Shown: positions 16,901 to 19,900 of the stretch, piece after piece
How positions within the stretch are numbered: position 1 is the first letter of the stretch
Layout of the letters: the number at the start of each line of letters is the position of its first letter
Origin: an uncultured Alphaproteobacteria bacterium
GTDB taxonomy: Bacteria > Pseudomonadota > Alphaproteobacteria > UBA7879 > UBA5542
NCBI GenBank assembly: GCA_903912365.1
Contig: CAIWGV010000046.1
Location: 10,707-74,706, forward strand
Reading direction: 5' to 3'
DNA length: 64,000 nucleotides
Position numbers and translations under genes: made by a program
The notes under the pieces: generated by a model
The model's input: the letters and a program-made list of their open reading frames with translations, nothing else
The model's database searches: none
Told to the model about the DNA's origin: nothing

Positions 16901-19900
16901 AACTTACAACTCTGGAGCTTTAACCTTCAGTAATGGGGGGAGTATTGGTTTTTCTGGTTCTAGTTCCATCCACATGGGGGGATTTGCAGGAGCCCTATCT
17001 GGACCTAATACCATCACAGGCTCCACCTATAACAGCGGAAATCTAACCCTCTCGAATGGAACCAACTCTAATAATGGAAACTCTAATAATGGAAATGTAA
17101 CAGGCGGGATTAATTTAGGAGGTTTCGTTGGAAGCAGCACCGGAGCCATTGATGGGACGTTAGGGGCAAACAGCAACACTGGAACCGTGGCCTTTACAAA
17201 TGGATATAATGGAGGAGGTACAGGAACAATCGGCACCTATCTCTATGTTGGAGGCTTCGCGGGGGCCATGAGCGCCAACGCCAACCTTACAGGGGCTACA
17301 TCCTCAAGTCCTGTCACCGTGGTGGATCAAAATAATTCTGGTAACAATTCTCCTCCTTTTTGTGTAGGCGGTCTTGTGGGAAACACCTCCAGTTCCATTT
17401 CCAATAGCTACGCCACAGGATCCGTCTCTTATACGGAAAATTCCATAAACACAAGCGCCTTATACATAGCCGGATTGGTGGCCCAAACCACCGGCGCAGC
17501 CATAACTAGCAGCTATTATAATCAGGCTCTTTCAGTAACTATCAGTTCCGCTCATCAGCTTCCATCTCTCCTCATGGGAGGGCTCGTGGCCTATAATGCC
17601 ACTCCCTTGTCAATTTCATCAAGTTATACAAGCGCGGGGAGTTCTCTCAGTCTCACAAATTCAGGTACTATCGCAATAGCTGCCGTGGGGGGGCTTGTGG
17701 GAAGTCCTGGGAGCACCTTAGTTCTCTCCACGACAACTAAGAATGCTGGAAATATGACCGTCACAAACACAGGGACATTTGGGGGTCTTTTCTATGGGGG
17801 TATCATTGGGGTCACAAAAGTCGCTGTAACCAGTACAGGTACCACTAACACTGGGAATCTAACCCTCCTCAATGGGACTGTCAATGGAGCAGGCTCCATA
17901 GGGACCGTTGAGATGGGAGGGTTCGTTGGAGGTAGCTCCAGCGCCATTGATGGGACGTTAGGGGCAAACAGCAGCTCTGGAACCGTGGCATTTACAAATG
18001 GACATACTGGGGGAGCTGGGTTACCCTACACAGGAACCATTGTCAACAATCTCTCCATTGGAGGCTTCGCGGGGGACATGAGCGCCAACGCCCTTATATG
18101 GGCTACATCCTCAAGCCCTGTCACCGTGATAGATGCAAATCATGTCGGTGCTGCTCCTTTTTGCATAGCTGGTCTTGTGGGAACCACGGGTGCAGGCGCA
18201 AGCATAAGTAACAGCTCTTATAATGGAGCTCTTTCAGCAACCATCAATCCCAATAATACTCTTGGGGTCCTCAACATGGGAGGGCTCGTTGCCTATAGTC
18301 AATACAGCCCATCAATTTCATCAAGTTATGTAAGTGCGGGGAGTTCTCTCAGTCTCACAAATTCAGGCACCCTAGGAGGAGGCGCCAATGTGGGGGGTCT
18401 TTTCGGGTATCTTAATTCTTTTAATTCCTCTGGAAATACTTACAATGCGGGCACTATGACCATTACGAACACGGGAACATTTTCGAGTACCCTTAACTAC
18501 GGGGGGGTCATTGGTTCTGCCAGTCAGACTACAACAAGCACAGGTACTTGTACCAACACCGGAAATTTAACCCTCCTCAATGGGACCTCTGATGGCCCAG
18601 GGACTATTACAGGAGATGTTTCCATGGGAGGGTTTTTTGGACTTTCAGCCGGCAGCTCTGGCACCGTATCCAGTTCTGGGGTACTCACCTTTACAAATGG
18701 AGCAGATACAGGTCCCACGGCAATACTATCAGGAAATCTTAATGTTGGAGGATTTGCAGGGTTTCTAAATGACAATGCCCCCCTGTCCGGTCAATCCTCA
18801 ACAGGCGTGACGGTTACAAATAATAGCAACATAACTACTACCAAGGCATGGAGTATTGCCGGTCTTGTAGGGAATGCCCTAAATAACATCATCAACAGCT
18901 CCGCCTCAGGAACTGTGTCTTATGTAGAAAATGCTATAAACGACAGTACTTTCGCCATAGGAGGATTGCTCGGTCAAAACACGGGTCCAGCAACCATAAG
19001 TAACAGCTCTTATAATGGGGCTCTTTCTGCAACCATCACCAACAATGGAAACTCAACCAATTCATTTTTTCTTGGAGGAATAGCAGCCGTCGCGTCAGCG
19101 AATCTCACAATCTCAGGAAGCTCTTTGGGATCCAATTCTTCCCTTCTTGTGACAAATAATGGAACTATGTATGAGTTAGGAATAGGAGGAATATCTGGAA
19201 AAAGTGAGGCCAACATCCCTCTAACGATTTCAGGCAGCTCTGTGGGGACCAATGCCTCCTTAGGATTTATCAATACTGGAAGAATTTTATCTAATTTGAG
19301 GAATTTTTTCTTTGGAGGAGTTGTTGCAGTGAATGGAGGCACGGCAACCCTTTCCAAAAGTTATAATCAGGGAAATCTTTTTTTAAATAATAGCGGAACC
19401 CTGAACTGCACAGTTTATTATGGGGGCATCATTGCCTCTCCTAGTAATGGGCAAACAATCAATCAAACTTTTAATACAGGAAATTTGAGTGTAACGAATT
19501 CCGGAACCGGAACCCTAACTAAACCCCTCTATATAGGAGGATTTGCAGGAAAGGAACCTGGTTTTCTAACAAGCCCTTTTACCGCTGCCAATAACTACAC
19601 CACAGGATCCATCAACATAAATAACTCAGGGAATCTTACAGATGTTTATATGGGAGGCTTCATGGGTTCTGTATCAGATCCTGACTCCACCATCAGCACA
19701 AGCTACACACGCACTTCCCTCTCCCTCACTAATACAGGCACTATTGCGGGAAACACCCTTGTGGGAAGTTTCGCCGGAAGTAATTCTGGAACAATCGCCA
19801 CTTCCTATGCCTTAATTCAACCCAGCGCTGTGGCAGGATTCACAAGCCCCTTGGCCCCCATTGGCGCAGGCACAATGAGTGGGGTTACACTTCTTCAACC

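What the first reader, a model, noticed from the sequence alone, without database searches (positions are those of the whole stretch)
17110..18372. Approximately 560-bp near-identical direct repeats inside the exoprotein gene (substrate for recombinational size or antigenic variation)
Two segments, roughly 17110-17670 and 17910-18372, share long stretches of almost identical nucleotides. Examples are attgatgggacgttaggggcaaacagca...ggaaccgtgg, ggaggcttcgcgggggccatgagcgccaacgcc vs ...gggggacatgagcgccaacgcc, and tcaatttcatcaagttat...gcggggagttctctcagtctcacaaattcagg. They encode ~180-aa duplicated modules (GGFVGS..AIDGTLGANS…SLSLTNSGT). A third shorter repeat pair (ataagtaacagctcttataatgg…) lies at ~18203 and ~18995. 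The nucleotide identity is higher than the protein divergence elsewhere, implying recent duplication or ongoing gene conversion.
Basis: seen in the sequence. Interest (0 to 1): 0.5.

Follow-up and report, generated by a model that had tools for sequence, protein, structure and literature searches.

The report
Diverged internal repeats in TpsA exoprotein
A giant secreted surface protein gene of an uncultured Holosporaceae-like bacterium contains three ~800-bp repeat modules, and two of them share a ~540-bp stretch that was copied from one to the other long ago (79% identical now); this is ordinary repeat evolution in an adhesin-type gene, not an active switching device.

Summary
The repeat is real and lies at the stated coordinates, but it is not near-identical. 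Segment 17124-17663 and segment 17922-18365 align over 144 codons at 79% nucleotide identity. Indels include a missing 34-codon unit in the second copy, and the longest exact matches are 32 and 31 nt.

The gene (13734/13914-20291, + strand) encodes a two-partner-secretion exoprotein (TpsA). It has an N-terminal TPS domain, about 33 GLUG-type units of ~39 aa that are predicted to form a parallel beta-helix, and a clade-specific C-terminal domain. The units are grouped into three higher-order modules: A, B and C.

The A-B similarity is a mosaic. In the core, dS is 0.24 and dN/dS is about 1. In the module edges synonymous sites are saturated (0 of 1000 permutations reach the observed contrast). 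In a module tree, A and B pair together (99.5% bootstrap), whereas C pairs with its ortholog in a syntenic relative.

The best explanation is an old intragenic gene conversion, or partial re-duplication, followed by drift and a one-unit deletion.

Module number differs among syntenic orthologs (0, 1, 3 and 3). Size change over evolutionary time is therefore supported. Ongoing or programmed variation is not.

This is an ordinary new member of a known kind, of low to moderate interest.

The parts
13734..20291 (+). tpsA exoprotein gene. The annotated ORF starts at ATG 13914 (2125 aa). The in-frame upstream sequence from 13734 encodes a signal peptide and the beginning of the TPS domain.
   Evidence: ORF list; translation; PF05860 E 4.3e-19 only when the upstream part is included; TIGR01901 E 3.3e-13.
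13734..13913 (+). In-frame 5' extension with no ATG/GTG/TTG. It reads IIRGISFFRKVFPGIQFFLGGVLFSIFAQA|HEA...LPQGPQAVHGNVDF. The candidate start is ATA at 13734, after GGGAGACGGAGG.
   Evidence: The same arrangement and an invariant CGGRGGATAAYAA motif occur in three orthologous loci.
13917..14582 (+). TPS secretion domain, including the ILNPNG motif.
   Evidence: PF05860 matches residues 57-278 of the translation that starts at 13749.
15950..19800 (+). Array of about 33 GLUG-type units (anchor motif hGG[LFIV]xG, spacing 34-48 aa).
17031..17846 (+). Higher-order module A (272 aa, 7 units).
   Evidence: Protein self-alignment and module alignment.
17847..18554 (+). Higher-order module B (236 aa, 6 units).
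18555..19358 (+). Higher-order module C (about 268 aa). It is orthologous to the third module of P0002.
   Evidence: tree bootstrap 90.5%.
17124..17663 (+). Homogenised core tract, copy in module A.
   Evidence: Max-chi-square segment on third codon positions, 0/1000 permutations; coordinates; dS 0.236, dN 0.243.
17922..18365 (+). Homogenised core tract, copy in module B.
17387..17492 (+). The one GLUG unit of module A that has no counterpart in module B. B carries a unit3/unit4 hybrid junction at about 18156-18200.
   Evidence: Gap between the two blastn HSPs; junction alignment; the unit is present in all other modules.
18198..18246 (+). Short high-identity patch (ISNSSYNGALSATI). It is shared with 18990-19038 (94%) and 17496-17544 (80%).
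   Evidence: D4. Low third-position divergence patches: B-C 3/200 and A-C 1/200 permutations.
18990..19038 (+). Module C copy of the short patch.
17064..17095 (+). Perfect in-frame 15-nt tandem duplication (AACTCTAATAATGGA x2.1, encoding NSNNG NSNNG). It is the only exact repeat in the gene.
   Evidence: TRF; translation. It appears as a 5-aa insertion specific to module A.
19761..20288 (+). C-terminal non-repeat region of unknown function, conserved only in this small clade.
   Evidence: No Pfam hit. Only 8 hits, of which 4 are clear, among 1.84 billion representatives.

Best explanation
The finding lies inside the passenger of a two-partner-secretion exoprotein (TpsA). The long middle part of this protein is a stack of about 33 GLUG-type units of ~39 aa, predicted to form a parallel beta-helix shaft.

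The units are organised in three higher-order modules of 6-8 units: A (17031-17846), B (17847-18554) and C (18555-19358). A-type/B-type and C-type modules already existed in the common ancestor of this genome and its syntenic relative.

Later, in this lineage only, a tract of about 540 nt of one of the A/B modules overwrote the other. The mechanism was non-reciprocal intragenic recombination, that is gene conversion or an equivalent partial re-duplication. The tract probably carried with it a one-unit deletion that A and B share.

Since then the two copies have drifted apart to 79% identity, with amino-acid changes as frequent as silent ones. B also lost one further unit by unequal recombination or slippage between adjacent units.

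The repeats therefore record how the shaft grows, shrinks and is homogenised over evolutionary time. In their present state they are too diverged to drive frequent recombination.

Shown: the anatomy, the mosaic of synonymous divergence, the module tree, the unit-fusion junction, and the differences in module number among orthologs. Inferred: conversion as the mechanism, the beta-helix shaft role, and the low present-day recombination rate.
For: - TPS domain and GLUG repeats.
- Module periodicity of 234-266 aa.
- A-B mosaic: core dS 0.236, dN 0.243; flanks dS 0.94-1.06. Third-position segment test gives 0/1000.
- Codon identity at shared amino acids is 76% for A-B against 40-51% for the other paralogous and non-corresponding module pairs (62% for the orthologous W_C-P2_C pair).
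- Module tree: (W_A,W_B) 99.5%, A/B clade 100%, (W_C,P2_C) 90.5%.
- P2_A-P2_B dS is 1.75, so the A/B pair in the relative is old.
- Flanking genes between the two genomes have saturated dS of 1.5-2, so the core event (dS 0.24) is much younger than the split.
- A and B share a ~45-aa gap, placed a few codons past the core's right boundary, that all other modules lack.
- The junction in B is a hybrid of units 3 and 4 of A.
- Orthologs in conserved synteny are 1312, 1252-1300, 2081 and ~2185 aa long, with 0, 0, 3 and 3 modules. A fragment (P0026) has 1 module.
Against: - Positional orthology of A and B with P2_A and P2_B could not be resolved (flank identities are equivocal; node support 17%). 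Independent duplications in the two lineages therefore cannot be fully excluded.
- The argument for an old A/B pair rests on saturated synonymous distances in low-complexity sequence.
- dS estimates in 25-60-codon flanks are noisy.
- The structure model rests on a 6-row alignment, and Foldseek found nothing significant.
- No population data were available, so the present-day recombination rate is inferred, not measured.
- No TpsB gene is present in the window.
Confidence: 0.7

Rival explanations
1. Lineage-specific tandem duplication. The ancestor had one A/B-type module, this lineage duplicated it, and the module edges then diverged faster than the core.
For: W_A and W_B are sisters (99.5%). 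Both are marginally closer to P2_A than to P2_B. They share a one-unit gap that other modules lack.
Against: A single duplication predicts uniform synonymous divergence. Instead, third-position difference jumps from 0.17 in the core to 0.52-0.56 in the flanks, which is the saturation level seen between old paralogs. The left edge of B is most like C (76% aa). The relative's A/B pair is old (dS 1.75), which implies two A/B-type modules before the split.
Confidence: 0.17
2. Active contingency or antigenic-variation device. The repeats are kept similar by ongoing gene conversion and serve as a substrate for frequent RecA-dependent expansion and contraction of the protein.
For: - There is a history of homogenisation and of unit or module loss and gain in the family.
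- Short high-identity patches are shared among A, B and C.
- dN/dS of about 1 in the core could reflect diversifying pressure.
- TpsA is 37-41% identical between genomes whose neighbouring proteins are 62-87% identical.
Against: - Core identity is only 79%, with indels and at most 32 nt of perfect match.
- dS of 0.24 has accumulated since the last event.
- No near-identical repeats exist in the gene other than one 15-nt duplication.
- The two independent contigs read for the ortholog (L001, L002) encode the same protein; for the window's own protein the contigs could not be read.
Confidence: 0.08
3. The similarity is due to structural or functional constraint on a repeated motif (convergence or purifying selection), or to an assembly artefact of a metagenome-assembled genome.
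For: The protein is low-complexity (rich in G, S, T and N) with strongly conserved GG[LFIV]xG anchors. The sequence appears to come from an uncultured organism.
Against: - Constraint cannot explain the silent-site similarity (76% identical codons, third-position identity 0.83 in the core).
- The ORF is intact over 6.4 kb.
- Copies that differ by 21% would not be collapsed by an assembler.
- An independently assembled ortholog has the same three-module architecture.
Confidence: 0.03

Closest known systems
TpsA exoproteins of two-partner (type Vb) secretion, such as FHA/FhaB, HMW1 and HpmA/ShlA
   Same: It has an N-terminal TPS domain with an NPNG motif. It is a very large passenger made of long stretches of imperfect repeats that are predicted to form a beta-helix (general description in PMC5422565).
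   Different: - The repeats are GLUG-type units, not FHA-type repeats; no Fil_haemagg_2 or similar Pfam hit was found.
- The C-terminal domain has no known family and is restricted to 4-5 lineages.
- No tpsB lies nearby. The gene sits between two lytic transglycosylase genes (Slt, MltA) in conserved synteny.
- No canonical start codon precedes the signal peptide.
GLUG-motif beta-helix domains (Pfam PF07581), as in streptococcal and Gemella IgA1 metalloproteases (PDB 7uvk, 7jgj) and Bacteroides BACOVA_03286 (3n6z)
   Different: Sequence identity is only 14-19%. No protease domain is present. The array is much longer (about 33 units), and it is organised in higher-order modules on a TPS-secreted protein.
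Concerted evolution or intragenic gene conversion of repeats in surface proteins (a general phenomenon in adhesins, silk genes and yeast FLO genes; for example PMC3899988, PMC3933166 and PMC3512402, listed)
   Same: Paralogous repeats within one gene are more alike than orthologous repeats between genomes. The low-divergence tract has sharp boundaries, and repeat number differs among relatives.
   Different: Homogenisation here is old and partial: one ~540-nt tract at 79% identity. In rapidly varying genes, by contrast, repeats are typically near-identical.

Membership tests
TpsA (two-partner secretion exoprotein) | N-terminal TPS secretion domain with conserved NPNG-type motif | tested here: met
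   PF05860 E 4.3e-19 (69.8 bits, cutoff 33.5) on residues 57-278. TIGR01901 E 3.3e-13. YILNPNGMVF is visible in the translation.
TpsA (two-partner secretion exoprotein) | Sec signal peptide at the N-terminus | tested here: inconclusive
   A signal-peptide-like sequence (…SFFRKVFPGIQFFLGGVLFSIFAQA|HEA) is encoded in frame upstream of the annotated ATG, but no ATG/GTG/TTG precedes it. The pattern is conserved in orthologs. No signal-peptide predictor was available.
TpsA (two-partner secretion exoprotein) | Cognate TpsB (Omp85-type, POTRA + ShlB barrel) transporter, usually in the same operon | tested here: not met
   No POTRA or ShlB hit was found in any of the 30 ORFs scanned, which include all ORFs of 470 aa or more in the 64-kb window. 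None was found in the orthologous loci either. The review notes that other genetic arrangements exist (PMC5422565), so the gene may lie elsewhere in the genome.
TpsA (two-partner secretion exoprotein) | Repeat-rich passenger folding as a right-handed parallel beta-helix | tested here: met
GLUG motif repeat proteins (PF07581) | Multiple matches to the GLUG profile above the gathering score | tested here: met
   E 4.7e-12, 45.9 bits (cutoff 20.5), 5 stretches in 15501-17000. E 6e-6 for the full protein. There are 33 hGG[LFIV]xG anchors at 34-48-aa spacing.
Intragenic gene conversion / concerted evolution | Discrete tract of low synonymous divergence embedded in older, saturated paralogous sequence | tested here: met
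   Third-position difference is 0.17 in the core (144 codons) and 0.52-0.56 in the flanks; 0/1000 permutations reach this. NG86 dS is 0.24 against about 1.0.
Intragenic gene conversion / concerted evolution | Paralogous repeats cluster by genome rather than by position | tested here: met
   (W_A,W_B) has 99.5% bootstrap inside an A/B clade that also contains P2_A and P2_B. The C modules cluster by position at 90.5%.
Recombinational contingency locus (rapid size or antigenic variation) | Near-identical (roughly >95%) long repeats that give efficient homologous recombination | tested here: not met
   Core identity is 79.4%. The longest exact matches are 32 and 31 nt.
Recombinational contingency locus (rapid size or antigenic variation) | Length or sequence polymorphism of the repeat region among strains or within a population | not testable with these tools
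   Only identical copies of the protein are on record (3 contigs). No reads and no conspecific genomes were available. Differences are seen only between distantly related genomes.

The most novel reading that the evidence does not exclude
The most novel reading not excluded has three parts.

First, this small Holosporaceae-like clade carries a fast-evolving, clade-restricted TpsA. It is 37-41% identical between genomes whose neighbouring proteins are 62-87% identical.

Second, its GLUG beta-helix shaft is remodelled by module-level gene conversion, loss and gain under relaxed or diversifying selection, as part of an arms race with a eukaryotic host.

Third, it is expressed from a conserved non-canonical AUA start codon and exported by an unlinked TpsB, in a conserved cassette flanked by two lytic transglycosylase genes.
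Probability: 0.2. Interest if true: 0.5.

Novelty: new member of a known kind. Interest (0 to 1): 0.22.

Why it matters
Large repeat-built surface proteins are the main tools that host-associated bacteria use to touch their hosts. How their shafts lengthen, shorten and diversify is of general interest.

This locus gives a clean, small example of three processes in one gene: higher-order repeat structure, one datable conversion tract, and a unit-fusion deletion. Syntenic orthologs with 0, 1 and 3 modules provide the comparison.

It does not reveal a new mechanism. In its present state it is unlikely to act as a fast variation switch.

The side observations may be more useful to annotators of these genomes than the repeat itself. 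They are a conserved missing start codon, an orphan tpsA between Slt and MltA, and an unknown C-terminal domain.

Tried and rejected
- A homolog search with the A+B module alone returned one weak hit because of the word-candidate limit, so it was uninformative.
- Single-sequence AlphaFold of 633 aa gave pLDDT 39 and was unusable.
- A profile search of PDB sequences with the module alignment gave no hit.
- The metagenome scan returned only distant TpsAs (28-32% identity in the TPS domain). The genome scan returned one partial ortholog that ends at a contig edge (L004). No conspecific genome was therefore available to test length polymorphism.
- Exact look-ups of window proteins found no contig on record.
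- Flank-only identity could not decide whether W_A and W_B are positional orthologs of P2_A and P2_B.
- The Rfam scan and the promoter/terminator scan showed nothing relevant to the repeats.
- Rejected: convergence by structural constraint (silent sites are also similar); assembly collapse (copies are 21% diverged and the ORF is intact); a TpsB among the unannotated large ORFs at 44701-46605 and 3810-5231 (no Pfam hit even at E 1).
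Full report
**Observation**

The repeats are real. A repeat search of 14000-22000 finds collinear direct-repeat families with start-to-start spacings of 798-810 nt and 702 nt.

A self dot-plot of the gene shows windows of at least 45 matches in 60 only at offsets 798, 702, 792, 810 and 807 nt.

blastn of module A against module B gives two HSPs:
- 17118-17386 vs 17916-18187: 78.6% over 281 nt, E 2e-66.
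- 17493-17809 vs 18195-18514: 70.5% over 325 nt, E 1e-36.
- The intervening 106 nt of A have no counterpart in B.

The third pair is also real. 18198-18246 vs 18990-19038 is 94% identical over 49 nt, and a third copy lies at 17496-17544.

'Near-identical' is an overstatement:
- The best-defined core (17124-17663 vs 17922-18365) is 79.4% identical over 144 aligned codons.
- The whole modules are 72.5% (nt) and 63% (aa) identical.
- The longest exact matches are 32 and 31 nt.

**What the gene is**

The repeats lie in one 6.4-kb ORF (13914-20291, + strand).
- With the in-frame upstream sequence included, the N-terminus matches the TPS secretion domain (PF05860, E 4.3e-19) and TIGR01901 (E 3.3e-13). 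It contains an ILNPNG motif.
- The middle matches the GLUG motif (PF07581, E 4.7e-12).
- I count 33 hGG[LFIV]xG anchors spaced 34-48 aa apart between residues ~747 and ~2011, numbering from 13734.

Structure prediction gave mixed results.
- A single-sequence AlphaFold run failed (pLDDT 39).
- Module A predicted with an alignment of six modules gave pLDDT 79.8 and pTM 0.85, and is all-beta.
- Foldseek was not significant.

This fits the general description of TpsA passengers as long imperfect repeats folding into beta-helices (PMC5422565).

The last ~176 residues match no Pfam family. In 1.84 billion representative proteins they have only four clear relatives.

**Higher-order repeat structure**

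Protein self-comparison shows periods of 234, 264-266 and ~497-508 aa. Local alignments define three modules:
- A: 17031-17846, 7 units.
- B: 17847-18554, 6 units.
- C: 18555-19358.

**Relatives**

Only a handful of orthologs exist:
- P0002 (2081 aa)
- P0003 (1312 aa)
- P0004/P0024 (1252/1300 aa)
- a fragment, P0026
- a contig-end fragment in an uncultured Holosporaceae MAG (L004)

The loci are syntenic: tRNA methyltransferase, OMP beta-barrel, Slt, tpsA, MltA, Tim44-like, membrane transporter.

Flanking proteins are 62-87% identical between the window and L001 or L003, and 79-93% identical between L001 and L003. TpsA is only 37-41% identical.

RpoD is 93% identical to a protein from the same sample as L003. 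It is otherwise at most 66% identical to uncultured Alphaproteobacteria and Holosporaceae.

**History of the repeat**

P0002 also has three modules. In a neighbour-joining tree of the seven modules:
- W_C and P2_C pair by position (90.5% bootstrap).
- All A and B modules form one clade (100%).
- W_A and W_B are sisters (99.5%).
- The single module of P0026 is the outgroup.

Silent sites tell the same story.
- Codons for shared amino acids are identical in 76% of cases for W_A-W_B.
- The figure is 62% for the orthologous C pair and 40-51% for all other pairs.

The A-B similarity is a mosaic.
- A max-chi-square scan on third codon positions picks 144 codons (17124-17663 / 17922-18365) with a difference rate of 0.17, against 0.53 outside.
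- This contrast is reached in 0 of 1000 permutations.
- Nei-Gojobori estimates are dS 0.236 and dN 0.243 in the core, and dS 0.94-1.06 in the flanks.
- P2_A-P2_B has dS 1.75.
- Flanking genes between the two genomes have dS 1.5-2 or are saturated.

My reading is as follows. Two A/B-type modules and a C-type module predate the split of the two genomes. In the window's lineage a ~540-nt tract was later copied from one A/B module into the other.

W_A and W_B also share a ~45-aa (one-unit) gap that every other module lacks. In the alignment the gap begins a few codons past the right boundary of the core. This is best explained if the converted tract extended slightly further and carried the gap.

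Smaller low-divergence patches link A, B and C at the ISNSSYNGALSATI motif (1/200 and 3/200 permutations). This evidence is suggestive only.

**Size change**

B lacks a 34-codon unit that is present in all other modules. Its junction (PFCIAGLVGTTGAGA) is a hybrid of unit 3 of A (PFCVGGLVGNTSS) and unit 4 of A (ALYIAGLVAQTTGAA) at both the protein and DNA level. This is the footprint of unequal recombination or slippage between adjacent units.

L001 and L003 are each other's closest relatives on flanking genes. Yet their TpsA proteins are 2081 aa and 1312 aa long, with three modules and none. Modules were therefore lost in the L003 lineage, or less parsimoniously gained twice.

The only perfect repeat in the gene is a 15-nt in-frame tandem duplication at 17064-17095. 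It appears as an A-specific 5-aa insertion.

**Verdict on the interpretation**

A past homogenising event and repeat-mediated size change over evolutionary time are supported. 'Recent', 'ongoing' and 'substrate for variation' are not.
- The copies have accumulated about 0.24 substitutions per silent site since the event.
- They have indels and share at most 32 nt of perfect identity.
- From established knowledge (not tested here), RecA-dependent recombination needs roughly 25-30 nt of perfect match and falls steeply with divergence of this size, especially when mismatch repair is present.
- The two contigs read for the ortholog (L001 and L002, from differently labelled sources) encode the same 2081-aa protein. 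The window's own protein is on record on three contigs that I could not read. This is weak evidence, because these assemblies may share underlying data.
- dN/dS of about 1 in the core indicates relaxed constraint or diversification. It does not by itself demonstrate positive selection.

**Rivals**

- A lineage-specific whole-module duplication fits the tree but not the sharp jump in silent-site divergence. It also does not fit the old A/B pair in the relative.
- Structural constraint cannot explain similarity at silent sites.
- Assembly artefact is unlikely for copies 21% apart in an intact ORF whose architecture is reproduced in an independent assembly.

**Novelty**

Repeat-built TpsA passengers, GLUG beta-helices and concerted evolution of intragenic repeats are all known. 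This is a new member of known kinds in a poorly sampled, probably host-associated alphaproteobacterial clade.

**Side observations**

All were followed up only partly.
- The signal peptide and the first TPS residues are encoded upstream of the annotated ATG, with no canonical start codon. In four orthologous loci an invariant CGGRGGATAAYAA motif places an in-frame ATA after a purine-rich Shine-Dalgarno-like run.
- No tpsB lies in the window or in the orthologous loci.
- The gene sits between two lytic transglycosylase genes in every locus.

Noticed in passing
window 13722-13913 (also L001 ~9800-10000, L003 ~6850-6900, L004 ~9960-10060): The signal peptide and the first residues of the TPS domain of tpsA are encoded in frame upstream of the annotated ATG (13914), but no ATG/GTG/TTG precedes them. 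Four orthologous loci share an invariant CGGRGGATAAYAA motif, which places an in-frame ATA (window 13734) after a GGGAGA/GGAGG run. This may be a conserved AUA start codon. Public gene calls (P0001, P0002, P0004) are N-terminally truncated as a result.
   Followed up: partly
window 11680-13608 and 20265-21407; L001 and L003 equivalents: tpsA is flanked upstream by an Slt-family lytic transglycosylase gene and downstream by an MltA-family one. The order is conserved in all three loci read, and no TpsB transporter gene lies anywhere in the 64-kb window.
   Followed up: partly
window 17064-17095: A perfect in-frame 15-nt tandem duplication (AACTCTAATAATGGA x2.1, encoding NSNNG-NSNNG) lies in the left edge of module A. 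It is the only exact repeat in the gene and hence its youngest repeat event. It is a better candidate for slippage polymorphism than the 540-nt repeats.
   Followed up: partly
window 19761-20288: The C-terminal ~176 aa of TpsA (…QMVQKNYFPAFNFGNPWFIDQW…LHDHRTLIPLQDPLKSV…EEEEGENLFG) has no Pfam family and only 4 clear relatives among 1.84 billion representative proteins. Its function is unknown.
   Followed up: partly
window 13734-20291 compared with L001 and L003: TpsA is only 37-41% identical between genomes whose flanking proteins are 62-87% identical (RpoD 93% to the L003 sample). It is a very fast-evolving gene relative to its neighbourhood.
   Followed up: partly
window 44701-46605 (-) and 3810-5231 (-): Two large ORFs (634 aa and 473 aa) have no Pfam hit even at E 1.
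   Followed up: no
window 32996-34480 (-): A subtilase (Peptidase_S8) ORF has a C-terminal IQ calmodulin-binding motif hit (E 2e-6). This eukaryote-like motif could fit a host-associated lifestyle. A Fic/DOC protein gene lies nearby (30951-32117).
   Followed up: no
window 8155-9192 (-), 22092-22592 (+), 60927-62216 (-): Accessory-looking genes are interspersed among housekeeping genes: a YhcG PDDEXK nuclease, a Hypoth_Ymh protein next to tRNA-Arg (22729-22805), and an AAA_14/DUF4143 ATPase. The YhcG gene is absent from the syntenic loci L001 and L003.
   Followed up: no
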